From Ostreococcus lucimarinus (lineage: Eukaryota), in assembly GCA_000092065.1 (NCBI GenBank), contig CP000592.1: a DNA stretch of 64,000 bases, one strand, 5' to 3'. Positions 13,273-53,395 of this stretch are shown piece by piece. Under the pieces are notes generated by a model. That model saw only the letters and a program-made list of their open reading frames with translations. It had not been told where the DNA came from and ran no database searches. The translations under genes and the position numbers were made by a program. The first letter of the stretch is position 1; each line of letters begins with the position of its first letter.

Positions 13273-14283
13273 TCAACGCGTAAAGTTGAAAATGGACCAG
13301 TTTGAGTCGCCGTCTTCGTCGTCGCCGCGCCTAGTCGTCGCCCCGACGTCGTCGTCGTCGATGGATAGACGCAGCTCCCCCTTGGGCACAGATCTCGGCG
13401 CAGGGAGCGTGGCTTTTGCTAATTTGCCAACCTCCCCTCGAATGTTTGGCGTCTCGGAGATGAGCTTGTTGCGCAGGCGAACGTACTCTTGAAACGATTC
13501 AATCAACCAAGGAATGCGCGTGTTCTGCACATCCTTAAAATTCGGTCGACGACCCTTGGCCTGCTCGAATCCATCGCTCCAGCTCGCGAGCTCGTTCCTG
13601 AGCCTGGTGTACGCGCTGAGTTCGTACGAAAACTGATTCACCTTGACAGTGGACGACGCAACCTTCTCCGCCCGCGTCGTCGACTTTTTCATCGCGATCA
13701 GCTTCGTCAGCTTCGCCGTGCGCTCCCTCTCCGCCGCTTGCTGTCTTTGCTGCGCCGTCCCCGCATTCTTCACGGTTGAACTCTCCGCGATCTCCGCCAA
13801 AGACGACGTCGCCGCCGCGCCCGCCGCCGCGCGCGCCGCGCGCCACCGCTCGCGCTGCGCCGCCGCGATCTTCTTCCTCGACTCCGCGCTCCGCCGTTCA
13901 CCCACCTTCGACGCCGCCATCGACGTCCGTCGCGCCTCCTCCTCCGCGCGCGTCTCCGCGGCCGTCTCCGCGCTCGCCTCCGCGTCGTCCTCGTCGTCGC
14001 CGCGCTTCGTCGCCCTCGTCCCGCCTCCTCCCGGCGTCGCGCCCTCCCCCCCGCTCGCCACGACCTCGGGAAACCGCACCTCGATCGTCGCCAGCAGTTC
14101 CCGCACCCCGTCCGCGTCGCCGCGCGCGATCTCCTTCCGCGGTCGCCCGCGCCGCGCCGTCCCGACGCCCGTCCCGCGCGCGTTCGTCGCGCGCGCGACC
14201 GCGCGCGTCGCGCGCGCGCGTCGCGTCGACGCGCGCGCCGTCGTCATCGCGCCTCGCGTCGCCGTCGCGCGCGCGTGCGCCAT
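13273..14283 (-). CDS. Hypothetical protein with an AT-hook-like GRPRK motif and a basic/Ala-rich N-terminus
   Basis: ATG at 14281-14283. The C-terminal half is not low-complexity (IPWLIESFQEYVRLRNKLISETPNIRGEVGKL). No confident family assignment. Confidence 0.5.
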   Translation of the reverse strand: MAHARATATRGAMTTARASTRRARATRAVARATNARGTGVGTARRGRPRKEIARGDADGVRELLATIEVRFPEVVASGGEGATPGGGGTRATKRGDDEDDAEASAETAAETRAEEEARRTSMAASKVGERRSAESRKKIAAAQRERWRAARAAAGAAATSSLAEIAESSTVKNAGTAQQRQQAAERERTAKLTKLIAMKKSTTRAEKVASSTVKVNQFSYELSAYTRLRNELASWSDGFEQAKGRRPNFKDVQNTRIPWLIESFQEYVRLRNKLISETPNIRGEVGKLAKATLPAPRSVPKGELRLSIDDDDVGATTRRGDDEDGDSNWSIFNFTR

Positions 14284-14585: not shown

Positions 14586-15414
14586 ATGTCCGCGATCTTC
14601 ACCACCTCCATGTCCGCCAAGGCCTCGGCCAAGGTGCGCGCGACGCGACGCGCGAGCGACGCGACGCGCGATCGGTCCGCGGACGCGCGCGAGTATCTCG
14701 CGGGTGTTCGAGGACGCGCGGGCGCGTCTCGCGCGCGCGGACGCGCGGACGCGCGATCGCGGACGCGCGAACGATGGGAAAGAATCGTTCGCGGCGGGCG
14801 GGCGCGCGATGCGGGAGGTCGCGCGGTCGCGGGACGAGCGGCGCGCGATCGCGCGCGCGCCGAGGGAACGGGCGGTGGATCGGGGTTGGGACGCGAGACG
14901 CGAGGGACTGACGAACGCGCGATCGCGCGCGCGCGCAGGTGCAATTCCGCGCTCGCCCGACGAAGGCGTTCGCGGCGCGCCCGGTGCAGTGCTCCGCGGT
15001 GAAGTTCTCCGTGAACGCGGCGGCGGTGCGTGCGAGCGAAGCGAAGGCAAACCTAGGCGTTTGAACGCTTCGGATAACGCGCGCGAGAGACGCGAGACGG
15101 GCGCGACGCGGCGATCGCGGACGCGTGATTCGGCGCGCAATGACTGACTGAGGTGGCGTTTGGTTTGTCCTTCGCGCGCGCAGAGCCAAGACACGCTCGA
15201 CAAGGTTCGCGGCATCATCTCCGAACAACTCGGCACGGAGCTCGACGCCGTCGCGGCGGACGCCAAGTTCGTCGACTTGGGCGCGGATTCTCTCGACACC
15301 GTCGAAATCATGATGGCGCTCGAAGAGCAATTCGAAATCACGCTCGATGAGGAAGGTGCCGAGAAGATCGCCACCGTTCAAGAAGCGGCGGACATGATCC
15401 AAGCGCAAATCTAA
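14586..15414 (+). CDS. ACP: Acyl carrier protein precursor; proposed three exons 14586..14633, 14939..15025 and 15184..15414 (122 aa)
   Basis: The last exon encodes a canonical ACP ([22 protein letters not shown]). The two upstream exons are all phase 0, use donors GTGCGC (14634) and GTGCGT (15026), CTGAC branch points and CAG acceptors. They give a transit peptide [16 protein letters not shown]|[29 protein letters not shown]|SQDTLDKV. Confidence 0.75.
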
Positions 15415-15696
15415 GTCTAAGTGGCGAGGTGTTTGGCGTTTTCGCCGACGCCGTCGTGTCTCTTAGCAAACATAAGATAATTCTTGTCAAAGACACACAG
15501 TTTTGACGCGCTCAATTTGAGAACCATTAAAGTCATCGTTCGCGCGTCGCGCTCGCGTCGCTCGCGTCCTCGTCCTTCGGAAAGGATGTGACTGATTAGA
15601 CTGACGTTCTCGAGATCCTCATCGCGCGGAGAACGACACACCGCATCGCGCGCGCGCGCGCTCAGACGCCCGCACTCGGTCGGGTGATAGAAAGCC

Positions 15697-17805
15697 ATGG
15701 CGCACGCGCGTAGGTACGCTCCACCGCGCGCGCACGGCGCTTTCAGCGCGCAAAACGGCGCGTATGGGATCCCGTTTCGCCTGTCCCGGTTGCCGCTCAT
15801 CGTGCTGATCGGCGCCGTGATCGCCGTGTCTGTGAGCATTTCGCGCTCGATCGCGCGAGAATCGATGCGATCGCTCGAGGTAAGCGAAATGCGGGCGAGC
15901 TTGGAGGCGATGAAGGCGCGAGCGCGGGAGTTGGAGGAGGAACTCGTGACGGCGACGGCGGCGACGGCCAAGGCGGTGGAGGAGACGGCGGCGCACGAAG
16001 AGACGCGAGCGCGATTAGCCGCGGCGAAGGCGGAAGCGTCCAGGGCTGAGGAAGAGAAAAGGCAGGCGGTGGAGGCGAGGGAAGCGATCGAGACGGATGT
16101 GCTGCTGGAAAAGGTGCAGGAGAAGGTGGCGATACCGGGGAGCGGTAAGACGAAGCGAGTCCCGACGGATACCGGCGCGAAGGAGGTGGAGGAAGTTTTC
16201 GGGGAGAAAGCCATGAGTGACGTCGCAGAAGTGGCCAAGGTTGTGGGTAAGAATAAAGCACGCATGGGTGAGGGTGATGAGGCGACGATGGACGATGAGG
16301 AGTCGAAGGAAATAGCAGACGGCGCCGACGAAGGGAGCGCGGCGAAAATCGACAATTCATCGAAAGATATCGCCGACGTACGTGTAAAGATCGCCACCGA
16401 TAGCGCCACAAACTCGGATCCGTTGCTTAAAAACTTGGCTCAATCATCCGTCAAGGCGACGAGTGAAGTATCGATGACGTGCAACGGGAAAGAGAACACC
16501 GAGCTTTGGGGCGGCGTAGTGAAAGATGGGAACGCTAATAAACAGCCAGACGCCGCTGCGTGCTGTGATTCGTGCGCAAAGATGAACGCGAATGGGGCGA
16601 ATCGATGTTCGGTGTGGGTTTACAGTGCGTCAAGCAAAGCGTGCTGGTTAAAGTTTGATGAAAATCCCGCCGCGGCGAAACCCGCCAACGAAGGACCGGG
16701 CGTGCCGTGGACGTCTGGTTGGTTTGATTTGCCGAAAAACACAATCGCGCCCAAGTATGAGTCCGCTACTGGGAAAACAGACTTGCCAAAGTGCTTGCAC
16801 GTCGTGATGACAAGCAACGGCAACGTGTACATGAACTGGCAATCACGAGTGATGTACTCGAGTTACCTCAGACACGCCGCCGAGGACGGGAGCATCATGA
16901 AGGCGTTTACTCGCATCTTGCACAAAGGACGGGAAGATGAGTTGATGCACGAGATTCCGACCATGCGATTCAATCCAGTTCAAGCGAAATGCGACGGATG
17001 GTGTGACTATCCCGTCGCCGATCGCTCCAAGGCTGTCGAGCAATGGTTGGAAACGGCAGACTCGGAGCGATGCTCGCACGTCGTTATGGTGGAGACGGAT
17101 CACATCATCGTGAAATCACCATCGCCCGAAATTTTGATGCCGCGCGGTCAAGCCATGGGCTTCAAGTTCGGGTACATGAACCCGCAACAATCGAGACTGA
17201 AGAAGATGTATCCTGAATATTTTGCGGATGGGAAAAAGATGCCCCCCACAGGCAACGCGCCGTCCGTCGTGAACACGGTCGATTTGAGGAAAATTGCACC
17301 GCTTTGGGCGCGCTTCGTGAACGAAACTGAATCTCCGGAGTCAGTTCGTAAAGAGTTAGGTTGGGTGCGCGACATGTACGCGTACGATCTCGCCGCATTA
17401 GCCACTGGCATCGAGCACGAGCTCTCGGAGTGCCCGGAGAGTCTCCTCATGGCGCAGCCGCCCGCCGACTTCGAGCTCGGTAACGCGTTCATCCTTCACT
17501 ACACGTGGGGGTCGGAGATCTACGACAAAAACGAAGAATTTATTTGGAAATTCGACAAGCGGTCGTACCTAGAAGGCCAATACGGTGAAGGTCCTTACAT
17601 TCTTCAAGAAATCCCCCCCCCGCCCGAGTGGGACGACGGTGCCAAGGGTCTTCAGCTGCAGACTTTCTTCAAACCTCGTGCGTTGACCGAAAAGCGACTC
17701 GGTCTCATCAAAACATTGATCGACGAGTTCAATCATGCCGTGCGTTCGCTATCAAAAATTCCGAAAGGCTACGCGACGATCGAGGAGGCGCGTTTATACG
17801 TGTAG
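15697..17805 (+). CDS. Type II membrane glycosyltransferase, HPAT/SGT1-like (peptidyl-Hyp/Ser O-glycosyltransferase family), with a coiled-coil stem and a PAN/apple-like Cys module
   Basis: There is an N-terminal TM helix (LPLIVLIGAVIAVSV) and a coiled-coil acidic stem. A Cys-rich module reads CCDSCAKMN..CSVWVY..CWLKF. The catalytic region carries motifs I recall from plant HPATs (LHVVMTSNGNVYMNWQSRVMY, LGWVRDMYAY, KFDKRSY). Confidence 0.6.
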   Translation: MAHARRYAPPRAHGAFSAQNGAYGIPFRLSRLPLIVLIGAVIAVSVSISRSIARESMRSLEVSEMRASLEAMKARARELEEELVTATAATAKAVEETAAHEETRARLAAAKAEASRAEEEKRQAVEAREAIETDVLLEKVQEKVAIPGSGKTKRVPTDTGAKEVEEVFGEKAMSDVAEVAKVVGKNKARMGEGDEATMDDEESKEIADGADEGSAAKIDNSSKDIADVRVKIATDSATNSDPLLKNLAQSSVKATSEVSMTCNGKENTELWGGVVKDGNANKQPDAAACCDSCAKMNANGANRCSVWVYSASSKACWLKFDENPAAAKPANEGPGVPWTSGWFDLPKNTIAPKYESATGKTDLPKCLHVVMTSNGNVYMNWQSRVMYSSYLRHAAEDGSIMKAFTRILHKGREDELMHEIPTMRFNPVQAKCDGWCDYPVADRSKAVEQWLETADSERCSHVVMVETDHIIVKSPSPEILMPRGQAMGFKFGYMNPQQSRLKKMYPEYFADGKKMPPTGNAPSVVNTVDLRKIAPLWARFVNETESPESVRKELGWVRDMYAYDLAALATGIEHELSECPESLLMAQPPADFELGNAFILHYTWGSEIYDKNEEFIWKFDKRSYLEGQYGEGPYILQEIPPPPEWDDGAKGLQLQTFFKPRALTEKRLGLIKTLIDEFNHAVRSLSKIPKGYATIEEARLYV

Positions 17806-17974: not shown

Positions 17975-18790
17975 CTACTGGAGCAGGAACAAGATGAGCA
18001 CGATGAGCGACACCAAAACTGCGATGACGATGCAGATCAGGCGATTTCTCGCCGCGCGCTGCGACTTGTCCGCCTTGGTGAGTTCTTTTTGCGCGTCCTT
18101 TGTGCGCACCGCCGTGCTCACAATGTTCGCCTCGATGTCGTCAATCATCGACCCTTGTTCGTTCACCAACACCGCGAGGTCTTGAAATATCTCATTTACT
18201 TCTCCGATCTGTTGCTGAATCTCCATGATCCCTCGTTCGCGCTCTTCGATCAACGCGTTATTATACTCGAGCTCGCCGTCCACCTGCGCAAAGTCGCTTC
18301 GCTGTTGCTGCTGCTGCATCAATTGCTGCGTATCCTGATACGCCGCCTCGCCCTCGCCCGACTCCTCGTCCATGGTACCGTAACTCGTCTTTCCCTTGCC
18401 CTTTTGCGGTAAGAACGTCGACTCTCGCTCCGCGCACGTCCTCTGCGCCTTTTGAAAATCCTTTAAAACGGCGTGAAAATCCTTCACCAACTTTTGATGC
18501 TTCGCCACGTGCTCCGCCTTATCCTCATCGTCCACGTCCACCGCGTTCGTGACCGCCTGCGCCAATCGCTTCACCGCTAACGACGCGTCTCGCGCCATGA
18601 CGCCCAGTTTTTCCCGCTGTTCGTGTAATTTCGCCCGCAATTCTCGCGTGTCCTTGCCCGTGCCCAGGACGTCGACGGCGCGCTTGAAGGCGCTCACGTG
18701 CGTCGTCATCTGGAAGATGAGTCCGCTGACGTTGCGGGACTCGGCGTCGAGGTCGTCGGCGGCGGCATCGCTCGTGGAGGCGCGGGACAT
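17975..18790 (-). CDS. Syntaxin (Qa-SNARE, PEP12/SYP2-like) with a C-terminal TM anchor
   Basis: The SNARE motif (IFQDLAVLVNEQGSMIDDIEANI) is followed by a tail anchor (LICIVIAVLVSLIVLILFLLQ). ATG at 18788-18790. Confidence 0.85.
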   Translation of the reverse strand: MSRASTSDAAADDLDAESRNVSGLIFQMTTHVSAFKRAVDVLGTGKDTRELRAKLHEQREKLGVMARDASLAVKRLAQAVTNAVDVDDEDKAEHVAKHQKLVKDFHAVLKDFQKAQRTCAERESTFLPQKGKGKTSYGTMDEESGEGEAAYQDTQQLMQQQQQRSDFAQVDGELEYNNALIEERERGIMEIQQQIGEVNEIFQDLAVLVNEQGSMIDDIEANIVSTAVRTKDAQKELTKADKSQRAARNRLICIVIAVLVSLIVLILFLLQ

Positions 18791-18937: not shown

Positions 18938-20290
18938 TCACGCTGCGCGCTGCGCGGAGACACCGGCGCGCTGCAGCGCGGCGGTGTGCAGGGCCTGGAG
19001 TAATTTATACGTGAACACGGGCATGTCGGTGGTGTCGAAATCCATGGGCTCGGCGAGGAAGCTCGGCACGAGACCTTCGATGTTGCCGAAACCGAGCGGC
19101 ACGCACGCGACCTCGTCGGCGACGCGACGACCGGGTTTCGGCGGACGCATAGGATCCTCGCCCGTGGGTTCGCCGTCTTCGCCCTCGGCGGCGCTGAGTC
19201 GGAAGGTGAAGCCGGTGCCGATGTGCGTGAAGTGGTGCACGCCTTGAGACTTTTCTTGCCATCGCAAGCCGGTGAGCGCCTCGAGTTCGAACGCGCCAAA
19301 ATCACCATCGCGGCCGCTCCCACCGGCACGTCCACTCGCACCCGCGCGCGTGGCTTCGAGCTCTTCTTCCATGCGAAGCATCTTCCCTTGGTACGCCAAA
19401 ACGGTTTCGCGCAACTCGGCGTTTTCGCGCTCGAGCGCGTACACCTTTTCGCTCGCGCCCTCGGCGCGAGAGGCAATGTCTCGCTGACGATCGGCTTCGG
19501 TGCGCAAGTGATGCACTAACTCATCCGCCTTGCGCTCGTGATCCATCAACACTCCTTGCTGTCGCTCGGCCTCATTCATGAGATCTTGAAGCTTCTTCGC
19601 CTTGAGCTGGTCGTACTTGGTTTGCAGCTTCTCGTACGCGCTTTGAAGCATGCGGTACGCCCCACCCCACGCCGTAGACTGCGGCATGTGCGCTTCGTTG
19701 ACGTTCACGACTCCATTCGCTCGATTCGCCGCGTCTGCCGCCGCCGCTGCCGCCTTGCCGAGTTTGGAGCTGTTCGGCGGCCGCCCTCGCCCGCGCGACG
19801 GCGTCCTCGCCCCAGGCGTCTTAACTTGACGCAAAAATTCAGGACTATCGATATCGGATCCCGGTGAAGACACCGAGGCTAATTTTGCGGCTTTATTCCT
19901 TCCCGAATCCGATCGCTCGTTCGCCTCGAAGTACTTCGCCGGTCGCTTCAAACCTTCCTTGGCGATGGCCGCCGCCTTGGCCATGGCGCTCACCTTTCTC
20001 GAGACGCCCGCCGCCTTTCCAGCCTTCTTCCCACCATCGTCCCCGGTTCTCTTCGCCATCGCCGCTTTCGTCGTCCCAACCGGTCGTCCTCGTCCACGCT
20101 TCGCCGCGGGCGCCGTTTCACCCTCCTTCCCCGTCGCGTTCCCCCCGCGCGCCGGCGTCGTCTTCGTCGGCGTCTTCTTCGTCGGCGTCTTCTTCCCCGC
20201 CTCCTCCCCCGACGACTTCTCTCGCCGTTTCCGCGCCTTCTCCGGCTCCTTCGTGAACGCTTTCGTCGATTTCTGTTTCACGCCGCGCAC
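18938..20290 (-). CDS. Lys-rich AT-hook (RGRGRP x2) and coiled-coil protein with a conserved-looking C-terminal domain; the start is uncertain
   Basis: Two RGRGRP AT-hooks, a central coiled coil and a C-terminal WQEKSQGVHHFTHIGTGFTF block. The ORF-track start at 20290 is a GTG; the first in-frame ATG is at 20057-20059 (Met78). Confidence 0.55.
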   Translation of the reverse strand: MRGVKQKSTKAFTKEPEKARKRREKSSGEEAGKKTPTKKTPTKTTPARGGNATGKEGETAPAAKRGRGRPVGTTKAAMAKRTGDDGGKKAGKAAGVSRKVSAMAKAAAIAKEGLKRPAKYFEANERSDSGRNKAAKLASVSSPGSDIDSPEFLRQVKTPGARTPSRGRGRPPNSSKLGKAAAAAADAANRANGVVNVNEAHMPQSTAWGGAYRMLQSAYEKLQTKYDQLKAKKLQDLMNEAERQQGVLMDHERKADELVHHLRTEADRQRDIASRAEGASEKVYALERENAELRETVLAYQGKMLRMEEELEATRAGASGRAGGSGRDGDFGAFELEALTGLRWQEKSQGVHHFTHIGTGFTFRLSAAEGEDGEPTGEDPMRPPKPGRRVADEVACVPLGFGNIEGLVPSFLAEPMDFDTTDMPVFTYKLLQALHTAALQRAGVSAQRAA

Positions 20291-25880: not shown

Positions 25881-28641
25881 ATGCGCGCGGCGAGCGAAAA
25901 GGCGAAGCGAGAGTTCATGAGCAGTGATCGAGGCGTGGTGTCCGTGTGCTCGTGTTTGTTGAAGGTGCGTTCGGGGAAGGAAACTCGGATTGCGTCGGGT
26001 TGCGTCGGGCCGCGTCGACGCGTCGACGATTGAGATCGGCGATTGAACGAGACTGACTGACTCGCTCGTTTTCGATGCTCAGGAGCTCGAGGGCACGAGC
26101 GTGGATTGGTCCGTGGACGTCATCGGCGCGATGACGAATTTAATGGTGCAGTTCTCAGACTTAGATTGCGTGGACGTCGATCGCGTGCGAGATAAGTTGA
26201 TCGATGCGTTTGAACGCTTGGTCGATTACGCGCAGACGGCGGCGGAGAGCAATTTCTCTTCCATGTCCAAGGATATGCGCGATGTTTATGTGGATATCGT
26301 GTGGATTATTACTGAGTTGGTGAATGGTGCGGATGCGAAAGAAAAAGCGGATTGGGAGCGATTCGTCAACACCGCTACTAACGCGATTCTCATCGAAAAT
26401 TTGCCCCCTCTGATGCGACGGGAAACGCTTCTCTGTTTGAAATCGGTCACGCAAGGATGTGTGGACACGTCGACCGCACTTAAAGATGCGATTTATCCGA
26501 ACGCTAACGTCAAAAGAAGTAGACGCGGTGACTCGAACTCCAAGCTCGGTTTACTTAGGCAAGTGTTTTTGAAGTGCGGCGATTTCAACGCCCAAAAGCA
26601 CATCGCCGAGATTTTGTTCCGTCTCGTCAAGGCGAACCTTCTCGAACAAGACGTCGCGTCTACCATCTTCAAGCACGTGACGTCACAGTTTAAGGATTTA
26701 TTCAGGATTCAAGATACCGCGCAGATGTTCAAATCGCTCAAGACTTTGGTTCGACACTTCAACGCCGCGCAAGGCAGCGCTGCCTCGGTCAAGTCTTTTG
26801 AAGCCAAAAATTTACGTCTAGTTGACTTGCAAGTGCACGATAAATGGGTCAATTTCGGTCAAGAAATGCTCACCGTGCACGTGGTCATGGAAGACGATGG
26901 TAGTATTGAGCCGGTGGATATCTTGTACTCGAACATTCGCGCGTTTTCTATGCCCAAGAAAAACGTCGCGCACATCGGCATTCGCGAGAAACCTCTTGGC
27001 TTGGCGGCGGAAGATCCTTTTGATATCGAAGACGACGAGTGGATTCAAATCGAATTCCATGATCAAAATGTTCCGGCTGTGATTGAACAGCTGTTTCGAA
27101 TCGGTAAGCAAAACGACATCGTCGAAATGTACATCACGAATGCAAACTTGGTGCCGAGCAAAAAAATGTCCGCGGGCATCTTAGACGTCGAATTGAACTC
27201 TGAGTCTGAATCTTTGGAACATGATGCGCCCGCGGTGAAACCGACGCCCGTCGTGCTCAAATCGAAGTCGAAGCCGAAGCCGAAGAAAGCGCCTCGGAAG
27301 ACTCGTGAGAAAACTGCCGCTCTAGTGGTCTCCGAAACAGAATCCGATTCTGAGGAAGTGCCGAAAGCCGTCAAGCCGACGCAAGCGTCTCGACAGCTTC
27401 CGAAGCGTAAAGCGAAGCAAGATGGTATCAAAAAGTTAAACCAGCAGCTCAATGATATTTTAGAGACTTCCGATCTCGCCGAAGAGCCTGAACCGTCGCT
27501 GTCTCCTCCACCGGCAAAGCGCACCTCGCCTCCGCAACGACTTCAACCTGTTCGTCAGCTTGAGTATTCTCCGCGACGCGAAATGGAGGACGATGAGGAC
27601 AACGACAACGACGACGACGACGCGCAAGAAGATGAATGGACTCATGAAGATATTCCTGCTCTCGTGAAGATGATCAAGGCGAAAGGTACGACGAAGAAGC
27701 AGCGCGAGGAATACCAGCGCGTCGTCGATCGATTGAAGCAAAGCGAATCTCGCGATGTTTCTTTGGGGAAGTCATTGTTTAAAACGCCCGCGCCGTCGCT
27801 TCAAGCGCCGAAGACCGGACCACGACCTGGCATACTCAAGTCCCCCGACGCTAAGCGTTTGAAAACCGGTCCTTATGATAGCGTCGTGGATTGGCGCAAG
27901 CGTCTCGCCCCAGTTCAAACGACAAAGAAGCCCGCTCGAACGACTACGACGGCGACTACGACTACGACGGACTTGAACTTTGACGACGATGAAGACGATG
28001 AAGACACTGGTGGTGGTACTTTAACCCCTCTGTCAAACTTTCTCAACGCATCTGACGATGTCTCGCCGTTACTGAGCGACGAAAAAGCGAAGAAGAAGTC
28101 TAAAACTCGCCGCTCGGCGCCCGCGGACGTCGCCGCCATGGGCGACGACATGGTTGGATTCCAGCAAATGATGCAATCTCTCGCCGAACGCAATCGACGA
28201 ATCGCGCGCGAGCGCATCGAGTCACTCGTGAACGAGTTCAGAGTCGAGTCCGAGGCCGCGAGTCGTAAGTTCATCTCTCAAGCCGAACAAGATTACGAAA
28301 CGTTCGCGCGCGCCGCCGGGCGCCAAGCCGCCGAGCGTTCGCGAGAGTCCAAAACCATCGCCTCTCGCGTCGAAGCCCTCACTCGCGAGTACAAATCCGC
28401 GCTCCGCGTCGCCTACGAAGATTTTACCGCCAACAAGCGCGCCATCGTCGCCGACACCGCCCGCATCACCGACGATCTCGCGCAAATCGACGCCAAGCAC
28501 GCCGCCGCCGCCAAGCGGCTCCTCGAAAAGCTCGACGCCAAGCGCCGCAAGGTCGCCACCGACGTCGACACCGCCGCTCGCGCCGCCCACACCAACGACG
28601 GCGTTAAATCCATGCTCTTAGAGCTCGCTCGCAAGATGTGA
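25881..28641 (+). CDS. Hypothetical protein with an N-terminal helical domain, a PH-like beta domain, a long K/E/S/T-rich disordered middle and a C-terminal coiled coil; a candidate SYCP2/Red1/ASY3-like axial-element protein; proposed exons 25881..25964 and 26083..28641
   Basis: The long ORF begins at a GTG (26101). Upstream there is an ATG exon (25881) with donor GTGCGT at 25965, CTGACTGAC at 26053-26061 and acceptor CAG at 26080-26082, all phase 0. The domain order and the coiled coil at the very C-terminus fit SYCP2/ASY3. Homology could not be confirmed by eye. Confidence 0.65.
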
Positions 28642-36243: not shown

Positions 36244-38001
36244 CTAGTAATCAATGTATTTCGCTTGTTGCGCCTCGACGACCCAATGTTGCATTTCTTT
36301 TTGAAACTCTTCATCGTTCATCGTTTCGAGCTTTGCGTTTGTGGGCATGAGTGGTGAAAAGGCCTCGTTGAAGAGGAGTTTTTTGATAAGCAACAAGCCC
36401 GTCTGCGGTCGAAACTGCGGCACCATGTGACCAGAGCCGTGCACGGTCGCAAAGGACAGGTTGTTTTCGTAGTCAATGACGTGACCGGCAAACTGCGGCC
36501 CAGCGTCTCTCGTGGCGAGGTTCGGACCATATAGTAACGGCTTTTCTTCGAGAAGAAATGCGGGTACGCCCGAGGCGTTCACGAAGTAGGCTCGCTGAGA
36601 GCCACCCTCGAGCTCTTTGAATCCGAGCTTGATTATGGCTGCGCGCGTACCTTCATACGATACGCACGGGTCGGTATCGCCGTTGAAAACGATCGTTCGT
36701 TCGAGTCTCGGCGCGAGCGTGCGGTAGAAATCAATCATGCTCGGCGTGTGTTTGTCCGCGCCCTCGTTACACGCCGCCCATACGCTGCTATACGACCAAT
36801 TTTCAGTTGGACCGGGCCAAGCTTTGGCGGGAGATTTCTCAACGTTGAGCGCTTTGCGGACATCATCACGCATCATCCATTGTGTCATCATATAATCAAG
36901 CGTGCCTGGAACGAACTCTCCGCCCTCTGCCATGGCTGCCGGCCCGAACAACGTGAGATCGTTCAGCCACGCGTAACGCCAGTCCTGAGAAAAGCCGTTG
37001 CTCGTTTGCCATAGAAACTTACGATGCGCGACGAGACACTCGGGCGAGCCTTTTCCCTTAGAGACCTCATCCGCGAAAATCTCTAGCAAAGACGTCGACT
37101 TGCGCTTCGCGGCGCCGCTCCATTCGCCGCGCATCAACGGCGACGCGTATCGATGTTCGCACTGATGCCAGAGCAAGTCGAACTCCTTGTCCGGGACGAA
37201 CCCATACTTGTGCCCGTACCACAACATAGACATTGAATTCCTCTGTGAATCGTTATCCGTGCACGGATCCCCCGTAGCGATGCCCGCGAGCGGAATCTTT
37301 GCGTCGTCGCTCGTCTGCGCGTCGTTGAAATCCAACAGTTCCCGCGCCAATGTCGGCACGTACACCCCCGCATACGACTCACCGGTGACGTAAAACTTAT
37401 TTGACCGTAGCTCTGGAAATTTTCGATGGAAGAAATCCACCACCGCCGCCGCCGCGTCTCGCGCCGCGCTCACGTCGTCGTTCGAGCAGTCGCCGCCAAC
37501 CGTCATCTCTTGGCAATAGCTCCATCCCACCCCCGCGGGCGACTCCAACGCCACCAAATTCGCATACTTCGTCCAAGCGAACGGATTTTCCATCAACCCA
37601 CCGCTCGCGTTCACCAACAGCGGGCCTTGTTCTTGCAGAAATCCGAGAATTGAGCTCGATCCCGGGCCTCCGTTCATCCACAACAGCGTGGGCGCGCGCG
37701 TCCAGTCGCCGTCGCGCTTCGCGGCGAACCAGTAGTGCAGCGCCGTCCCCGGCGTCGACGCCGACGCATCGAGAAATCCAGAATACTGCGTCGACGGCGG
37801 CGCGCCGTATCCCGGCAGCGTCGTCACCGCGTCGCCGTCGCGCGCCATCGCTCCTCCGCGCTCTTCGCGCCGTAATTCGACGCTCGCGCGCGTCCCTCGC
37901 GTCGTCGCGCGCGCGTCGCACGCCCCCGGCGCGACGACCGCGCACGCGAAGAGCGCCACCGCCGTCGCGCGCGTCGCGCGCGCGCGTCGCGTCGTCGTCA
38001 T
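36244..38001 (-). CDS. Serine carboxypeptidase (S10 family) with a signal peptide
   Basis: WMNGGPGSSS, GESYAG and ATVHGSGHMVPQ (the catalytic Ser/His context). The N-terminal signal is MTTTRRARATRATAVALFACAVVAPGACDA. ATG at 37999-38001. Confidence 0.9.
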   Translation of the reverse strand: MTTTRRARATRATAVALFACAVVAPGACDARATTRGTRASVELRREERGGAMARDGDAVTTLPGYGAPPSTQYSGFLDASASTPGTALHYWFAAKRDGDWTRAPTLLWMNGGPGSSSILGFLQEQGPLLVNASGGLMENPFAWTKYANLVALESPAGVGWSYCQEMTVGGDCSNDDVSAARDAAAAVVDFFHRKFPELRSNKFYVTGESYAGVYVPTLARELLDFNDAQTSDDAKIPLAGIATGDPCTDNDSQRNSMSMLWYGHKYGFVPDKEFDLLWHQCEHRYASPLMRGEWSGAAKRKSTSLLEIFADEVSKGKGSPECLVAHRKFLWQTSNGFSQDWRYAWLNDLTLFGPAAMAEGGEFVPGTLDYMMTQWMMRDDVRKALNVEKSPAKAWPGPTENWSYSSVWAACNEGADKHTPSMIDFYRTLAPRLERTIVFNGDTDPCVSYEGTRAAIIKLGFKELEGGSQRAYFVNASGVPAFLLEEKPLLYGPNLATRDAGPQFAGHVIDYENNLSFATVHGSGHMVPQFRPQTGLLLIKKLLFNEAFSPLMPTNAKLETMNDEEFQKEMQHWVVEAQQAKYIDY

Positions 38002-44266: not shown

Positions 44267-45313
44267 TTAGTTCTTTCTGTTTTGAATGTAATCCGCCAAA
44301 CCGATGAGCGGCTTGACCTTCACCGGGTCAAAGCCCTCTAACTCTTGCTTTGCCTTACTAATGAGATCCGCCGCGATGCGCTTGGACTCTTCCATGCCGA
44401 CCAGACTGGGATAGGTGGACTTGCCGACGGCCATATCCTTACCCGCGGTCTTCCCGAGCTCTTCGCTCGTCGCCGTGCAGTCGAGAATGTCGTCGACGAC
44501 TTGAAACGCCAAACCAATGTTTTGCGCGTATCGCTCCAGCTTCCCGATCTGCTCTTCGCTCGCCCCCCCGAGAATGGCACCAGCCGTGACGCTCACCTCG
44601 AGCAACGCTCCCGTCTTGTGTGCGTGAATGTACTTCAAGGTATCAATCGTCACCGTGCCCTCGTCCGCGCCCTCGGACATGATATCCACGACTTGTCCGC
44701 CGACCAACCCCTCGCTCCCGACGCACTTTCCGACGTCGACGATCACTCGAAGCACTTTATCCGCGCTCACCCCTTTCGTTTCTCTTCCGATGTACTCAAA
44801 CGCGTGACTCAACAGCGCGTCACCGGCCAAAATCGCCATCTCCTCTCCGTACACCTTGTGATTCGTCGGCTTGCCGCGGCGAAAGTCGTCGTTATCCATG
44901 CTCGGCAAATCGTCGTGGATCAGCGACATGGTGTGAATCATCTCCAGCGCGCACGCCGTCGGCATCGCCACCTCCATCGTCCCCCCCACGAGTTCGCACG
45001 CCGCCAAGCACAGCGCCGGTCGAATCCTTTTCCCTCCCGCCAGCAGCGAATATCGCATGCTCTCGCTCAGGCGTTCCGGATAATGCATCGGCACCGACGC
45101 GTCCAGCGCGCGTTCGATCTCCGCGTTCACGTTCTTGATGTACGCGTTAAATTCTTGTTCGCTCGACACGTCCGGCGTCGCGCTCACCGCGCGCACGCGT
45201 CCCATCACCCGTCCGCGCGCGCCCGCGCGATCGCCGCGCGTCGGTCGCGCCCCGCGCGAGGGCGCGACGCGCGCGCGCCCCCCCATCGCGCGCGTCGCCG
45301 CCGTCGTCGTCAT
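44267..45313 (-). CDS. GGPS: Geranylgeranyl diphosphate synthase (short-chain trans-prenyltransferase) with a plastid transit peptide
   Basis: FARM and SARM motifs ([17 protein letters not shown]; FQVVDDILD) and a GGPPS-type chain-length region. ATG at 45311-45313. Confidence 0.9.
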
Positions 45314-45794: not shown

Positions 45795-45894
45795 ATGGGA
45801 TACGGCGCGCGATCGAGGATGGGGTTTCGTACTTTCGCACGCGCGCGCGGCGGTTCGAACGGCGCGCGCGACGGACCGCGGCGCGCGCGGCCGA

Positions 45895-45933
<39 letters not shown>

Positions 45934-47435
45934 TGACGACGGCGATGGGTTCGGCGCGGTGCGCGGTGCTGGGACGCGCGCGCGCGACGACGCGCGCGAC
46001 GATGACGACGACGACGACGGCGCGGACGCGCGCGGGACGAGGGACGCGAGCGACGCGGACGGCGCGGACGACGCGCGTCGTGCGGTTCGTCGCGACGCGG
46101 GCGACGCGGGACGGCGTCGCGCGGGCGTCGAGCGCGAAGACGAACGTGCTCGTCGTGGGGGGGGGGGGGAGGGAGCACGCGCTGTGCTGGAGGTTGGCGT
46201 CGAGCGCGAGCGCGGGGACGCTGTATTGCGCGCCGGGAAACGCGGGGATCGCGCGCGAGCGCGGCGTGGAGACGGTGACGCTGAATGAGAGCGATCACGC
46301 GGCGGTGGTGGGGTTCTGTCGAGAGCGATCGATCGGGCTGGTGGTGGTCGGACCCGAGGCGCCGCTCGTGGACGGGTTGGCGGACGCGCTCGCGGCGGCG
46401 GGCGTGCCGGTGTTCGGGCCGAGCAAGAGCGCGGCGCGGTTGGAGGGATCGAAGGCGTTTATGAAGGATTTGTGCGCCAAGTATAAGATTCCGACCGCGG
46501 AGTACGCCAAGTTTACGGACGCGGCGAAGGCGAAGGCGTACATCGAGTCCAAGGGCGCGCCCATCGTCGTCAAGACGGATGGCTTAGCCGCGGGTAAGGG
46601 CGTGATCGTGGCCATGGAGATCGAAGACGCGTTGAACGCGGTCGATGATATGCTTTCGGGCGCCATGTTCGGCAGCGCCGGCGAGGAAATCGTCGTGGAG
46701 GAGTTTTTGGACGGCGAGGAGGCGTCCTTTTTCGCCGTCGTCGGCGGCGGCAAAGCCGTGGCGCTGGCGAGCGCGCAAGACCACAAGCGCGTGGGCGACG
46801 GCGATACCGGCTTGAACACGGGTGGTATGGGTGCGTACTCTCCCGCTCCCGTCGTCACGCCCGAGATCACGGACGTGGTGATGCGAGACATCATCAAGCC
46901 GACGGTGGACGGCATGGCTGCCGAAGGGTGCCCGTTCACGGGTGTCATTTTCGCCGGATTGATGATCTCCAAGGATGGCACGGTGAAACTTTTGGAGCAC
47001 AACATCAGATTCGGTGATCCCGAGTGCCAAGTTTTGATGGCGCGACTCACGAGCGACCTGACGGCGCTCCTTCTCGCCGCCGCCACGGGGACGCTCGAAA
47101 ACGCCGAGGTGACGTGGTCCGACGACTCCGCCGTCGTCGTCGTCATGGCTGCCGAAGGCTATCCGGGCTCGTACGCCAAGGGCGAAAAAATCACCAACCT
47201 CGACGCCGCGGGCGCGATCGACGGGGTGAAAGTCCTTCACGCCGGCACCGCTTCCGACGCCGACGGCGACGTCGTCTCCAGCGGCGGACGCGTCCTCGGC
47301 GTCACCGCCTACGGATCCTCCATCACCGAAGCCGCCGAGCGCGCGTACGAGGCCGTGGACGTCATCGAATGGCCGGGCGGTTTCACTCGCAGAGACATCG
47401 GCTGGCGCGCCATCGCCCGCGAAAAGGCTCGATAA
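45795..47435 (+). CDS. purD: Phosphoribosylamine--glycine ligase (GAR synthetase, PurD) with a transit peptide
   Basis: [15 protein letters not shown], the ATP-grasp region and a C-terminus [18 protein letters not shown] that matches bacterial PurD ends. ATG at 45795. The N-terminal 110 aa are T/A/R-rich. Confidence 0.9.
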
Positions 47436-48117: not shown

Positions 48118-49890
48118 CTAAAATTCTTCCATCTTTCGCACCGTTCTGTCGCGTTTCGCGCGTGCCTCGATGAATTCGGCGCGCGCGCGCGCGAGCGCGG
48201 AATTGACGCTGTTCAAACCGTTGAATTGACGGGCGCCGCGCGGCGAATCGGCCACCATGAAGGGACTGTTCGGCGCCGTCGCCGAACGCCGGCGAATGAC
48301 GACGAATTCTTCGCCATCCGATTCTTCGTCCGAGACTTCGTGAACGTGCAGTTTTTTCGTGCTCGTCGACGCGCCGTTCGCGCGCGCGAAGCGCGAGGAG
48401 ACCCTGGGCGGCGTGCGCGCGACGTGCTCGAGCATCGCGTGTTCGCGAACGCTGTTGCGTCTCGCGTCTTGCTCGAGCAACGCGTTGATCTCGCCCGTGA
48501 GCTCGTTCGAGCGTTTTTCAGTCTCTTGAAGCCTGACGCGCGCGTCCTTTTCGCGCGCGTACGCTCGATCCAACTCGCGTCGCAGCGCGTTTCTCTCTTC
48601 CTCCAGCGCCCCGAGGCGCGAGTCGAGCGACTCGATGTACGCCTCGGCTTCCGCCTGCTTGGCTCGCATCTCCTGCAAGCTGCGCTGATGCGCCTCGGAC
48701 GCGCTCGCCATGGCGTTGCTCACGTGCATGGAGGCTTGCGCCGACGCCGCGTCCATGGCGTCAATCTCTTGGAGCAAACCTTCGACGCGCGCTTCGCTCG
48801 CCGCGAGCTGTTCCTCGAGCTTGTCTTTGAGCTGACGCTGTTTATCGAGCGTTTCGTTCAAGCGCGCGCCTTCGGACGCGAGGTCCTCCGCGCGACGCTT
48901 CAGCGTCGCGATTTCCGCGTCCTTCTCTCGCGCGGACAGGGAGAGACGACGCGTCTCCTGATCCGCGTCTTCTTGAGATCGCTCGAGTCGTCGCAGCTCG
49001 ACTTCCAGCTTGTTGACCACGACGCTGCGCTCCTCTAAAACCGTCTCCATCTCGGCGCGAAGCTCCGCGGACTCTCGCCGCGACGCGTTCAACTGCTCGC
49101 GCAGCTCGCTTTCGATCGCGTCGCTGCTTTCGGCGAGCGTGTGCATCCGCCTTTGCACCTCGGCCAACGTCTCCTGTAACTCGCGTCGCTCGGCTTCAAT
49201 CTCGCGCATCTCGGCGCCTCGGCTTCGTCCGCTCTTCACGTCCGGCGTCCTGTAGAGCTTTTTACCACCGCTGCTCGGCGACGAGCGCTCGAGCGCCATG
49301 TCTTCGAGCAATCGCTCCACCTCCGCCCGCAGCCGCGCTTCGTACGCCTCGACGTCATCCGACGACGGCGGTCGCGCCCTCGCGTACGCCAACTTTGTCT
49401 CGTAATCCGCGCACGCCGCGACGTGCGCGTCCAAAACCGCCGTCAGCAAATCCCCCACGCGCTCCCGCGTCGTCCCATCGCGCTCGATCCAAATCATCGG
49501 ATCGTTCTCCGCCGCGCGCGCGACGTCCGCCTCCACCAATCCGCGCTCGGCGCACGCCGTCGCGAACGCCGTCGCCGCGCGACACACGTCCTCCAGCGCT
49601 CCCTCCGCCGTCGCGCACCGCGCTAACGCTTCCGCCTCGCGCGCCGACGCGCGCTCGCGCTCTTCCGCTGACCGTTCACCGTCCGCGCGCGCCCGCGCGA
49701 GGCGCTCGCCCGCGGCCTCGGCGTCGTCCCTCGCCGCGTCGCGCTCGAGCGCCCTGGCGCGTCGCTCGAGCGCGAGCGCGCGCTCGAGCTCGTCCGCGCG
49801 CGTCGTCGCGCGCGCCCGCGTCGTCGGCGGGTCCGCGGCGACCGTCGCGTCGACGCGGTCGCCGCGACGCCGCGTCGACGGCCATCGCAT
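48118..49890 (-). CDS. Long coiled-coil protein (structural or tethering-type), function unknown
   Basis: Heptad-rich E/R/A/L sequence throughout. The chosen start ATG (49888-49890, MRWPSTRRR) is the first Met that does not overlap tubulin exon 1. The listed ORF extends antisense across alpha-tubulin exon 1, and that part is rejected. Confidence 0.55.
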
Positions 49891-50123
49891 CGCGACGCGA
49901 TGTGCGGGCGCGGCCTCAATCGACGGGTCGTGACTCAGCGACGAGGGACTCGAGGGGGACCACCGCGACTTCGAACGGCCCGCGAACGCCTCGAGCGGCA
50001 CTTCTCGAAGCGCGTCATCGCCGCAGCGACCTCGAATCGCTCGCCGACGACCGCGTGCGCCTCGACGAATCGGTCGGTGACGCGAATTTACGCGCGCGTG
50101 CGACGGACCGAACGACCGACGCC

Positions 50124-51659
<1,536 letters not shown>

Positions 51660-51902: not shown

Positions 51903-51928
51903 CATCCCACTACAAGCGTAGTGGGATG
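51903..51928. promoter_or_regulatory. Perfect 11-bp inverted repeat (catcccactac aagc gtagtgggatg) overlapping the ATG of the downstream ORF
   Basis: Seen directly. The motif tcccacta also occurs at 51868-51875. Confidence 0.4.
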
Positions 51929-53395
51929 AATCAGACACTTTCGAAAATCGCGCGCCACGACGCGACGCGCGCGCCGAACGTGCTCAAACCGTTCGTCTCC
52001 ATCGTTTCACGCCGTCCTCGAACCCCGCCGGAGTTCGTCGTCAGATTTTCCGGACAGATTTTCCGGACGGGTCTCCGCACAGCGCGCGTCATCGGCGCCC
52101 ATCGCGCGATGACGCTCGCCGACGCCGCGCGCGCGTGCGTCCCGACGCCCGCCGACGCCTCGTCCGACGACTTCGCGTCGGCCGCGTTCGACCGTCTGCG
52201 CGCGCTGCGCGACGGCGCGCGCGATTTGGAACCGGCGCGCGCGTCGGCGATTCGTCGGATGCCGACGAATCGCGAAGCCTCCGGATCGGCGCGGCTCGTG
52301 GAAGAGATCTCGTCCGACGACGTCGCGCCGACGTCCGAGTCCGAGTCCGCGCTCGCGCTGCTCGCGTGCGCGGCGCACGGCGCGCTCGGCGACGGCGACG
52401 TCCCGAGGTGGTCGAACGCGCGACTGAGCGCGCTCGCGGCGGAGACGTACGACGACGGATTCAAAGCCAGAGGTCCCGACGCCGTGATCGATAGTTTTTT
52501 GGAGGCGTACGGGCGCGCGGACGCGCCGGCGGCGCCGGCGGCGTCGTTCGGGGCGAACGCGGAGTCGGACGCGCGCGCCGCGGAGATCGCGGCGCGGCAA
52601 CTGTCGTGGTGCTTGGAGCGAGACGAGTTGTATCTGGGAAGCCCGTCGAGGACGCGCGAGGTCGTGGCGGTCGCGATGCCGCGCGTGTTGAGAGCGTTGG
52701 ATTACCCGTCGGAAGGGGTGAGGACGAGCGGCGCGATGTCTGCGAGGGCGCTGTCGAGGCGCGCGACGGGATTCGATTGGCGCGCGGGACCGGGCGCCGT
52801 GTTGCTCGACGCGTGTCGGTCCGCATTGATAGGCGCGAGCGCGGAGGTTTGGCCGCACGCCTTGGACGTCGCGTGCGCGTTGACGGGCGTCGTCGCGAGG
52901 GACGCGGGAATCGAGGAATATCGCAAGACGTTCTCGCGAGCCATCGACTGCGCGCGCTTGCGCGGGACGGAGACGGCGTACGCCGCGCCGCTGCTCGCGT
53001 CGTTTCCGAATTTGATTCGCGACGCGAAGGCGTGCGTCGCGGTGCACCTCGATCGTTTGCTCCCGCTTTTGTGCGCGTACATGCAATCGCACAAGGACGA
53101 CGTCGCCGTCGGCGCGGCGTCGCTCGTCGCGCTCGTCGTCGAAAACGCCTGGCCGCGCGCGCGCGCGCACTGCGAGTCGATGTGGCCGCACGTGAAGCGC
53201 GCGTACGCCGAAGCGGACGGTCGATCAGCGGTGAGCTGCGATAAATTACGCGCCGAGCTCGAACGCGTCGTCGAACTCGTGCAACTCGCGGCGGGGGGGG
53301 AATTCACGCGAGTGTGGAAGAGCGACGAAGACGTTCCGGCGCACGCCGTCGGTTTGGTTCGATTCCTCGCCGCGCTCCCGGCGACGCGCGCGTAG
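51926..53395 (+). CDS. Hypothetical alpha-helical protein (489 aa)
   Basis: A long ORF with a real ATG and protein-like composition. No family recognised. The real start may be a downstream Met (MTLADAARA). Confidence 0.5.
   Translation: MNQTLSKIARHDATRAPNVLKPFVSIVSRRPRTPPEFVVRFSGQIFRTGLRTARVIGAHRAMTLADAARACVPTPADASSDDFASAAFDRLRALRDGARDLEPARASAIRRMPTNREASGSARLVEEISSDDVAPTSESESALALLACAAHGALGDGDVPRWSNARLSALAAETYDDGFKARGPDAVIDSFLEAYGRADAPAAPAASFGANAESDARAAEIAARQLSWCLERDELYLGSPSRTREVVAVAMPRVLRALDYPSEGVRTSGAMSARALSRRATGFDWRAGPGAVLLDACRSALIGASAEVWPHALDVACALTGVVARDAGIEEYRKTFSRAIDCARLRGTETAYAAPLLASFPNLIRDAKACVAVHLDRLLPLLCAYMQSHKDDVAVGAASLVALVVENAWPRARAHCESMWPHVKRAYAEADGRSAVSCDKLRAELERVVELVQLAAGGEFTRVWKSDEDVPAHAVGLVRFLAALPATRA

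What the first reader, a model, noticed from the sequence alone, without database searches (positions are those of the whole stretch)
15697..17805. HPAT/SGT1-like O-glycosyltransferase with a PAN/apple-like module and a coiled-coil stem in a presumably wall-less picoalga
The catalytic region resembles the plant hydroxyproline O-arabinosyltransferase family and the related Chlamydomonas peptidyl-Ser galactosyltransferase. Those enzymes decorate extensin-type cell-wall proteins. Mamiellophyceae such as Ostreococcus have no cell wall, so the substrates here are an open question. The long acidic coiled-coil stem and the Cys-rich PAN-like insert are not features of the Arabidopsis HPATs.
Basis: partly seen in the sequence, partly recalled or inferred. 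Interest (0 to 1): 0.5.

Follow-up and report, generated by a model that had tools for sequence, protein, structure and literature searches.

The report
Ostreococcus HPAT-type glycosyltransferase with PAN domain
This is an intact, conserved gene of the naked picoalga Ostreococcus lucimarinus for a membrane-anchored glycosyltransferase of the plant hydroxyproline O-arabinosyltransferase family (GT95) with an extra PAN/apple domain; it is an uncharacterised but unsurprising family member, because GT95 genes and hydroxyproline arabinosides are already reported for Ostreococcus.

Summary
Window 15697-17805 (+) is one 702-aa ORF with a short basic tail, a single N-terminal TM, a helix of about 90 aa, an acidic disordered linker of about 115 aa, a six-Cys PAN/apple module and a GT-A catalytic domain that matches Pfam HPAT (E=6.6e-57).

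The Pfam model also matches SGT1, so I tested the subfamily separately. A land-plant HPAT-type HMM scores 175 bits, against 39 and 28 bits for the two SGT1 domains. The protein has the HPAT-type E-x-D motif (VETD), not the SGT1 D-A-D. It keeps 22 of 22 family-conserved residues and 9 of 9 HPAT-versus-SGT1 discriminating residues. Its type II topology also fits HPAT. It is GT95-type, not GT96.

"Coiled coil" is only partly supported: a long helix is predicted, but heptad periodicity is not significant.

The window is O. lucimarinus CCE9901 or a near-identical strain. Published work already lists 3 GT95, 2 GT96 and 8 GT77 genes there, reports Hyp-Araf3 in O. tauri (an unpublished observation) and lists four long chimeric extensin-like proteins in O. 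lucimarinus. The PAN-HPAT fusion is absent from land-plant HPATs and from SGT1, but it occurs in roughly 27-31% of 70 diverse HPAT-type representatives.

Verdict: real, correctly read, modest interest.

The parts
15697..17805 (+). Complete CDS, 702 aa plus stop: PAN-domain HPAT-type (GT95) glycosyltransferase
   Evidence: ORF. The identical 702-aa product is called on independent metagenome contigs. Orthologs are 58-65% identical over the full length by BLASTP and 76-83% identical over the PAN plus catalytic part.
15697..15786 (+). Cytoplasmic tail, aa 1-30: basic (net +4), with an N-terminal dibasic 'RRY' motif
   Evidence: Composition. 'RRY' or 'RRH' recurs at the N-terminus of several orthologs (alignment A2). 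A role as an ER-export or Golgi-targeting signal is inference.
15787..15855 (+). Single transmembrane signal anchor, about aa 31-53 (type II topology)
   Evidence: It is the only strong hydropathy peak (19-aa windows starting at aa 30-35, mean KD about 2.2). It is helical in the full-length model.
15856..16125 (+). Helical stem, aa 54-143: free of Pro and Gly, rich in Ala, Glu, Lys and Arg
   Evidence: AlphaFold predicts a helix at aa 32-143, pLDDT about 70-79. Heptad periodicity is not significant. The sequence is poorly conserved among orthologs.
16126..16470 (+). Acidic disordered linker, aa 144-258, ending in a conserved 'SDPLLxNLA' motif
   Evidence: pLDDT is below 50 over aa 142-240 and 246-258. 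Length and sequence vary among orthologs, apart from SDPLL-NLA.
16471..16731 (+). PAN/apple-like module, aa 259-345: Cys262, 289, 290, 293, 304, 316, and the motifs WG..V, CCxxC and CWLK
16765..17802 (+). GT-A catalytic domain of HPAT (GT95) type, aa 357-702
17092..17100 (+). E466-T467-D468, the E-x-D counterpart of the GT-A DxD motif, at the end of beta-strand HVVMV
   Evidence: E466 and D468 are invariant in 47 homologs. E-x-D is found in 254 of 336 HPAT-type sequences, whereas all 120 SGT1 sequences have D-A-D. A strand at aa 461-465 precedes it. A role in metal and nucleotide-sugar binding is inferred from GT-A enzymes in general.

Best explanation
The gene encodes a type II membrane-anchored, lumen-facing GT-A glycosyltransferase of the hydroxyproline O-arabinosyltransferase family (CAZy GT95). 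It is probably Golgi-resident.

The most likely activity is that of plant HPATs: transfer of the first L-arabinofuranose from UDP-beta-L-Araf onto 4-hydroxyproline of secreted or surface proteins. That would start the Hyp-arabinoside chains that GT77 enzymes extend.

In a naked alga the acceptors would be Hyp-containing surface or secreted glycoproteins, such as the long chimeric SPn-repeat proteins reported in this species, rather than a wall.

The N-terminal tail and TM anchor the enzyme. The helix of about 90 aa and the acidic disordered linker hold the catalytic unit away from the membrane. The PAN/apple module, packed next to the GT-A domain, probably acts as an accessory binding module for the acceptor polypeptide or its glycans.

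Shown here: gene integrity and conservation, domain architecture, fold, GT95-type rather than GT96-type sequence signature, and predicted type II topology. Inferred: donor and acceptor specificity, Golgi location, the role of the PAN module, and any oligomerisation of the stem. The confidence of 0.7 is for the statement as a whole; GT95-type family membership alone I put at about 0.9.
For: The ORF is intact and is called identically elsewhere. Pfam HPAT scores E=6.6e-57 and PAN_4 passes its cutoff. An exhaustive search hits the land-plant HPAT-type representative P0311 (Avena, 365 aa) at E=2.8e-43 and 38% identity, and no SGT1 appears in the top 150. Subfamily HMMs score 174.8 bits for HPAT-type against 39.2 and 27.8 bits for the SGT1 domains. 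BLASTP against a real Arabidopsis-type SGT1 (P0139) gives only 22-24% identity and 60 bits. The E-x-D motif separates the two families cleanly. The protein keeps 22 of 22 conserved residues and 9 of 9 discriminating residues. There is a single N-terminal TM with the catalytic domain C-terminal, as in type II HPATs (topology of the ArafTs from PMC8012813). The model is confident (pLDDT 90.6, pTM 0.87) with a GT-A fold closest to retaining GT8, GT6 and GT24 enzymes; this agrees with the published statement that HPATs are related to GT8 (PMC4908140). The pathway context is published for the genus: GT95=3, GT96=2, GT77=8 and GT47=3 in O. lucimarinus, Hyp-Araf3 detected in O. tauri, and SPn-repeat proteins present.
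Against: No biochemical data exist for any Mamiellophyceae GT95. Identity to land-plant HPAT-type proteins is only about 37-38%, and donor or acceptor specificity cannot be read from sequence. Ostreococcus has three GT95 paralogs, which may not all share one activity. The Hyp-Araf3 report for O. tauri is an unpublished observation cited in a review. No substrate, P4H or GT77 gene lies in the window, although eukaryotic genes are not expected to cluster. The function of the PAN module and any stem dimerisation are untested.
Confidence: 0.7

Rival explanations
1. It is a GT95-fold enzyme whose specificity has diverged from plant HPATs. It might use a different nucleotide sugar, or a different acceptor such as a non-Hyp residue or a glycan. 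The PAN module would direct it to a lineage-specific substrate.
For: Identity to land-plant HPAT-type proteins is only about 37-38%. There are several GT95 paralogs per Mamiellophyceae genome. The family is large and diverse, with 973 representatives and weak deep tree nodes. The added PAN domain is absent from the characterised enzymes.
Against: All 22 family-wide conserved residues, including the E-x-D motif, are retained. Hyp-arabinosides are reported in O. tauri and something must initiate them. The HPAT-type HMM score is high.
Confidence: 0.2
2. It is an SGT1-type peptidyl-serine alpha-galactosyltransferase (GT96).
For: Pfam PF23452 also matches every SGT1 retrieved, so the Pfam hit alone does not exclude this. 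The two families are related (PMC8012813).
Against: SGT1 HMMs score 39 and 28 bits against 175 bits for HPAT-type. Identity to SGT1 is 22-24%. The protein has E-x-D instead of the D-A-D found in all 120 SGT1 sequences. It carries the HPAT-type residue at 9 of 9 discriminating positions. SGT1 (P0139) has a signal peptide, two tandem GT domains and a C-terminal TM. This protein has one GT domain and an N-terminal TM. Ostreococcus has separate GT96 genes.
Confidence: 0.04
3. It is a catalytically inactive, lectin-like or scaffolding protein that merely retains a GT-A fold.
For: There is no direct evidence of activity. Accessory PAN domains are binding modules.
Against: The E-x-D motif and every family-conserved residue are intact. 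The catalytic part is 76-83% conserved among orthologs, compared with 58-65% over the full length.
Confidence: 0.03

Closest known systems
Arabidopsis HPAT1-3 (CAZy GT95), hydroxyproline O-beta-L-arabinofuranosyltransferases (Ogawa-Ohnishi et al. 2013, as cited in PMC8012813 and PMC4908140)
   Same: Both have a type II topology and a C-terminal GT-A catalytic domain. The family motifs line up: FTR(I/V)LH, E-x-D-H-I-(I/V)-VK, GW(V/L)R/E-MYAY, QPP, HYTxG and FDKRSY. The protein keeps 22 of 22 conserved residues and scores 175 bits against a land-plant HPAT-type HMM.
   Different: Identity is only about 37-38%. The window protein is twice as long (702 aa against about 365 aa). It adds a helical stem of about 90 aa, an acidic disordered linker of about 115 aa and a six-Cys PAN/apple module, none of which is present in land-plant HPAT-type proteins. 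It reads E-T-D where land plants read E-P-D. Its activity is untested.
SGT1 / SRGT1 (CAZy GT96), peptidyl-serine alpha-galactosyltransferase (Saito et al. 2014, as cited in PMC4908140)
   Same: Both belong to the same Pfam superfamily (PF23452) and share the GT-A fold. Thirteen of the 22 HPAT-conserved residues are shared.
   Different: SGT1 has a signal peptide, two tandem GT domains and a C-terminal TM, and it carries a D-A-D motif and no PAN signature. The window protein has the opposite topology, one GT domain, E-x-D and a PAN module. Identity is 22-24%.
Retaining GT-A enzymes of GT8, GT6 and GT24 (LgtC 1g9r, glycogenin 1zcu, UGGT catalytic domain 6fsn)
   Different: Sequence identity is only 7-13%. 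They are relatives by fold only, and there is no family membership.
PAN/apple domains (plasma kallikrein and factor XI apple domains; Pfam PAN_4)
   Different: The Pfam score is marginal. Here the module is fused to a glycosyltransferase, and its ligand is unknown.
Glycosyltransferases with accessory domains, such as ExAD (GT47) with N-terminal EGF-like domains, also present in the prasinophyte homologs (PMC5371791)
   Same: Both are extensin-pathway GTs carrying an extra Cys-rich extracellular-type module N-terminal to the catalytic domain.
   Different: The module type differs (EGF-like versus PAN) and so does the GT family. The analogy is an inference about function, not homology.

Membership tests
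HPAT/SGT1 superfamily (Pfam PF23452) | Score above the curated gathering threshold of the family HMM | tested here: met
   193.6 bits against a cutoff of 23.9, E=6.6e-57, aa 368-628 covering profile positions 2-272 of 307.
GT95 (HPAT) | Closer in sequence to HPAT-type than to SGT1-type proteins | tested here: met
   The land-plant HPAT-type HMM scores 174.8 bits against SGT1 domain HMMs at 39.2 and 27.8 bits. phmmer E=2.8e-43 to the Avena HPAT-type representative P0311. BLASTP to SGT1 P0139 gives only 60 bits.
GT95 (HPAT) | Family-conserved catalytic-domain residues, including the E-x-D motif | tested here: met
   It keeps 22 of 22 columns that are at least 93% conserved in 77 HPAT-type sequences, and it has the HPAT-type residue at all 9 positions that differ from SGT1. 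E-x-D is present.
GT95 (HPAT) | Type II membrane protein with N-terminal signal anchor and luminal C-terminal catalytic domain | tested here: met
   There is a single hydrophobic segment at about aa 31-53, and a positive N-terminal tail. It is helical in the model. This is an in-silico result only.
GT95 (HPAT) | GT-A fold related to GT8 | tested here: met
GT95 (HPAT) | UDP-beta-L-Araf:peptidyl-Hyp beta-L-arabinofuranosyltransferase activity | not testable with these tools
   This needs an enzyme assay or a mutant glycan analysis.
GT95 (HPAT) | Golgi localisation | not testable with these tools
   Only the topology and a dibasic N-terminal motif are suggestive.
GT96 (SGT1) | Architecture: signal peptide, two tandem GT domains, C-terminal TM | tested here: not met
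   The reference P0139 shows that layout. The window protein has one GT domain, an N-terminal TM and no C-terminal TM.
GT96 (SGT1) | D-A-D ('ILDADMI') motif | tested here: not met
   All 120 SGT1 sequences have D-x-D and none has E-x-D. The window protein has VETD.
PAN/apple domain | Pfam PAN_4 above the gathering score, plus a conserved Cys framework | tested here: met
   28.6 bits against a cutoff of 27. Six Cys are conserved across orthologs and distant relatives.
PAN/apple domain | Apple-domain fold | tested here: met
PAN/apple domain | Binds a protein or carbohydrate ligand | not testable with these tools
   No ligand information is available.
Coiled-coil stem | Significant heptad (a/d) hydrophobic periodicity | tested here: inconclusive
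   For aa 56-90 the best register has an a/d hydrophobic fraction of 0.60 against 0.12 elsewhere, with p about 0.065 against shuffles. For aa 91-145 there is no periodicity (p about 0.99). This was a home-made test, not a calibrated coiled-coil predictor.
Coiled-coil stem | Long uninterrupted alpha-helix | tested here: met
   AlphaFold predicts a helix at aa 32-143, pLDDT about 70-79.

The most novel reading that the evidence does not exclude
PAN-HPAT may be the ancestral green-algal form of GT95, later lost in land plants. In this reading the PAN module is a lectin-like or peptide-binding domain that selects or processively tracks Hyp-rich surface glycoproteins. In a wall-less picoalga this enzyme would then shape the cell-surface glycocalyx, and so possibly cell-cell or virus recognition, rather than a wall.
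Probability: 0.2. Interest if true: 0.5.

Novelty: new member of a known kind. Interest (0 to 1): 0.25.

Why it matters
The gene shows that the first committed step of Hyp-O-arabinosylation is encoded and strongly conserved in an alga that has neither wall nor scales. This supports the published view that the O-glycosylation machinery predates extensin-based walls.

The practical value is modest. It provides a well-defined candidate, with domain boundaries, an E-x-D motif to mutate and a separable PAN module, for testing what Hyp-arabinosylation does on a naked cell surface. O. tauri is genetically tractable (my own knowledge, not tested here).

It also gives a clean sequence rule for separating GT95 from GT96 when the Pfam model hits both: E-x-D versus D-A-D, plus eight other positions.

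Tried and rejected
- NCBIfam and a PDB sequence search gave nothing useful. No HPAT structure appears to be solved.
I therefore obtained named plant proteins indirectly, using a probe written from memory of Arabidopsis HPAT1 and SGT1 purely to fish. It returned genuine SGT1 proteins. A local BLAST then identified genuine land-plant HPAT-type representatives among the exhaustive-search hits. The remembered HPAT1 sequence itself is only a lead.
- The Saito et al. 2014 SGT1 paper is not held.
- I looked for pathway partners or substrates in the window. The neighbours are unrelated housekeeping genes. The only SPPP-rich ORF (15797-16360, minus strand) is an antisense shadow of the stem.
- I looked for viral homologs, given that prasinoviruses carry many GTs. 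No viral contig encodes a relative, and BFVD matches are generic GT-A folds at 7-14% identity.
- The coiled-coil claim failed a heptad shuffle test.
- The first tree attempt timed out. The NJ tree that ran has weak deep nodes, so I make no strong claim about whether PAN is ancestral.

Full report

Yes. Window 15697..17805 (+) is a single 702-aa ORF from ATG to stop. Gene callers on Tara Oceans and other metagenome contigs report the identical 702-aa product, flanked as here by an acyl carrier protein gene and a syntaxin gene. Its codon-position GC (GC1 0.57, GC2 0.44, GC3 0.69) matches Pfam-confirmed neighbours.

Pfam finds PF23452 'HPAT' (193.6 bits, E=6.6e-57, aa 368-628) and PF14295 'PAN_4' (28.6 bits against a cutoff of 27, aa 268-319). 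NCBIfam and a PDB sequence search find nothing.

**2. Organism and context**

The adjacent syntaxin (17978-18790, minus strand) is 100% identical to XP_001420774.1 of Ostreococcus lucimarinus CCE9901. The GGPP synthase cluster also contains a CCE9901 entry. Mean GC of the window is 0.60, against 60.44% published for that genome.

The neighbours are unrelated nuclear housekeeping genes: ALIX/BRO1, a HECT E3 ligase, cyclophilin, a radical-SAM enzyme, ACP, syntaxin, an ABC1 kinase, the RNR small subunit, a CTR1-like kinase, an S10 carboxypeptidase, a TOG protein, GGPP synthase, GARS and tubulin. No P4H, GT77 or Hyp-rich protein gene is nearby. The only SPPP-rich ORF (15797-16360, minus strand) is an antisense shadow of the stem region.

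**3. Anatomy**

- aa 1-30 form a basic tail (net +4) with an N-terminal RRY motif that recurs in orthologs.
- aa 31-53 or so form the only hydrophobic segment.
- The full-length AlphaFold model predicts one uninterrupted helix over aa 32-143 (pLDDT about 70-79). Residues 142-258 are disordered (pLDDT below 50), and the folded PAN and GT-A domains follow.
- The stem (aa 56-260) has a net charge of -14. It varies in length and sequence among orthologs, except for an 'SDPLLxNLA' motif just before the PAN module.
- A heptad shuffle test gives p of about 0.07 for aa 56-90 and no signal for aa 91-145. 'Coiled coil' is therefore a possibility, not a finding.
- The PAN module has six Cys (262, 289, 290, 293, 304, 316) in a WG...CCxxC...C.WV...CWLK framework, conserved in all full-length orthologs and in more distant relatives.

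**4. Which family: GT95 or GT96?**

The Pfam hit cannot decide this. Every SGT1 retrieved carries PF23452 too. I therefore tested the question directly, in five ways.

- **Pairwise comparison.** BLASTP against a genuine Arabidopsis-type SGT1 (P0139, 802 aa) gives 22-24% identity and 60 bits.
- **Exhaustive search.** A phmmer search of 1.84 billion representatives returns 973 relatives. They include land-plant HPAT-type representatives from Avena (P0311, 365 aa, E=2.8e-43, 38% identity), Glycine and Adiantum. No SGT1 appears in the top 150.
- **Subfamily HMMs.** HMMs built here score 174.8 bits for the land-plant HPAT type, against 39.2 and 27.8 bits for the two SGT1 domains.
- **Motif.** HPAT-type proteins carry E-x-D after the beta-strand (254 of 336 sequences). 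All 120 SGT1 sequences carry D-A-D, and none carries E-x-D. The window protein reads HVVMV-E466-T-D468.
- **Conserved residues.** Of 22 columns at least 93% conserved in 77 HPAT-type sequences, the window protein keeps all 22. At the 9 columns where SGT1 differs, it always has the HPAT-type residue.

Topology agrees as well. SGT1 has a signal peptide, two tandem GT domains and a C-terminal TM. This protein has an N-terminal anchor and one C-terminal GT domain, like the type II HPATs (PMC8012813). The conclusion is GT95-type.

**5. How unusual is the architecture?**

Land-plant HPAT-type proteins (365-391 aa) and all 120 SGT1 sequences lack the PAN signature. However, Pfam finds PAN_4 in 19 and PAN_1 in 3 of 70 diverse, near-full-length HPAT-type representatives.

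In an NJ tree the PAN-bearing forms are scattered, including in the group that holds the land-plant sequences. Deep nodes are weak. The window protein sits in an 82%-supported clade of PAN-bearing Mamiellales-type proteins. One of these clusters contains a transcript from Ostreococcus sp. RCC789.

The fusion is therefore a common algal variant of GT95, not a peculiarity of this gene. I found no paper that contains both 'PAN domain' and 'arabinosyltransferase'.

**6. Mechanism: best explanation**

The protein is most likely a type II, probably Golgi-resident, retaining GT-A enzyme. It would transfer L-Araf from UDP-beta-L-Araf to Hyp on secreted or surface proteins and so initiate the chains that GT77 enzymes extend. 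E466 and D468 would serve the metal and nucleotide-sugar binding role of the GT-A DxD motif; this is inferred from GT-A enzymes in general.

The helix and acidic linker would act as a spacer. The PAN module would be an accessory acceptor- or glycan-binding domain, by analogy with the EGF-like domains of ExAD (PMC5371791).

The fold, family and topology are shown. Specificity, localisation and the PAN function are inferred.

**7. What is already known**

- A 2026 paper tabulates GT95=3, GT96=2, GT77=8 and GT47=3 for O. lucimarinus CCE9901, and 3, 2, 8 and 2 for O. tauri (PMC13213038).
- Petersen et al. 2021 state that Hyp-Araf3 was detected in O. tauri, as an unpublished observation (PMC8012813).
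- Moller et al. 2017 note repeated SP3-4 motifs in the O. tauri and M. pusilla genomes, and no Hyp-Araf4 in O. tauri (PMC5371791).
- Liu et al. 2016 list four 'long chimeric extensins' and no classical extensins in O. lucimarinus (PMC4769139).

So the paradox of a wall-less alga carrying this enzyme has been noticed, and candidate substrates have been named. What remains open is the biochemistry and the biological role.

**8. Negative side checks**

No viral contig encodes a relative. Viral structure matches are generic GT-A folds.

**9. Verdict**

The finding is real and largely correctly interpreted. I sharpen it to GT95-type, correct the coiled-coil claim, and correct the implication that the PAN fusion and the wall-less context are new. 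It is an uncharacterised member of a known family, in a known pathway context. Interest is modest (0.25).

Noticed in passing
window 15160-17805; NCBI proteins MDA9599486.1 and MDA9599487.1: NCBI entries labelled '[bacterium]' (locus tag N9S31_01520) are this HPAT-type protein (690 aa, partial) and the adjacent ACP. An Ostreococcus contig appears to have been mis-binned into a bacterial MAG.
   Followed up: partly
ortholog cluster P0007 (770 aa): JGI/IMG names members of this orthologous cluster 'Skp family chaperone for outer membrane proteins'. The name is spurious and was probably triggered by the helical, charged stem. Other clusters are named 'hydroxyproline O-arabinosyltransferase'.
   Followed up: no
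window 15797-16360 (-): A Pro-rich ORF (28% Pro) with SPPP motifs lies antisense to the stem-coding region. Its GC2 of 0.75 and GC3 of 0.45 are the reverse of real genes here, so it is a shadow ORF and not an extensin-like gene.
   Followed up: yes
window 44270-45313 (-): The GGPP synthase ORF is 348 aa here and in many metagenome and MMETSP records. The NCBI model for O. lucimarinus CCE9901 (ABO99074.1 / XP_001420781.1) is 312 aa, so the reference model is probably truncated at the N-terminus.
   Followed up: no
window 15160-15414 (+): The ACP ORF is only 84 aa and starts at a TTG in the mechanical ORF list. Related Micromonas entries are 124 aa. An organelle-targeting peptide, or an upstream start or exon, is probably missing from this ORF.
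   Followed up: no
window 45795-47432 (+) and 36247-38001 (-): The exact GARS and S10 carboxypeptidase ORF translations are not in the protein collection, although other neighbours are. The published or called gene models probably differ in start codon or introns.
   Followed up: no
window-wide, 2-kb bins: GC content swings between 0.51 and 0.68 over adjacent 2-kb bins around a mean of 0.60. This probably reflects gene-by-gene composition differences. I did not examine it.
   Followed up: no
window 26101-28641 (+), 48118-50313 (-), 51926-53395 (+), 18938-20290 (-), 13273-14283 (-): Five long ORFs (336-846 aa) have no Pfam match at E<=1e-3. They are uncharacterised Ostreococcus proteins.
   Followed up: no
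P0259 (748 aa): This transcriptome-derived representative (source eukprot) has two HPAT-type stretches in one protein. It is a tandem-domain GT95-type protein, reminiscent of the SGT1 duplication.
   Followed up: no
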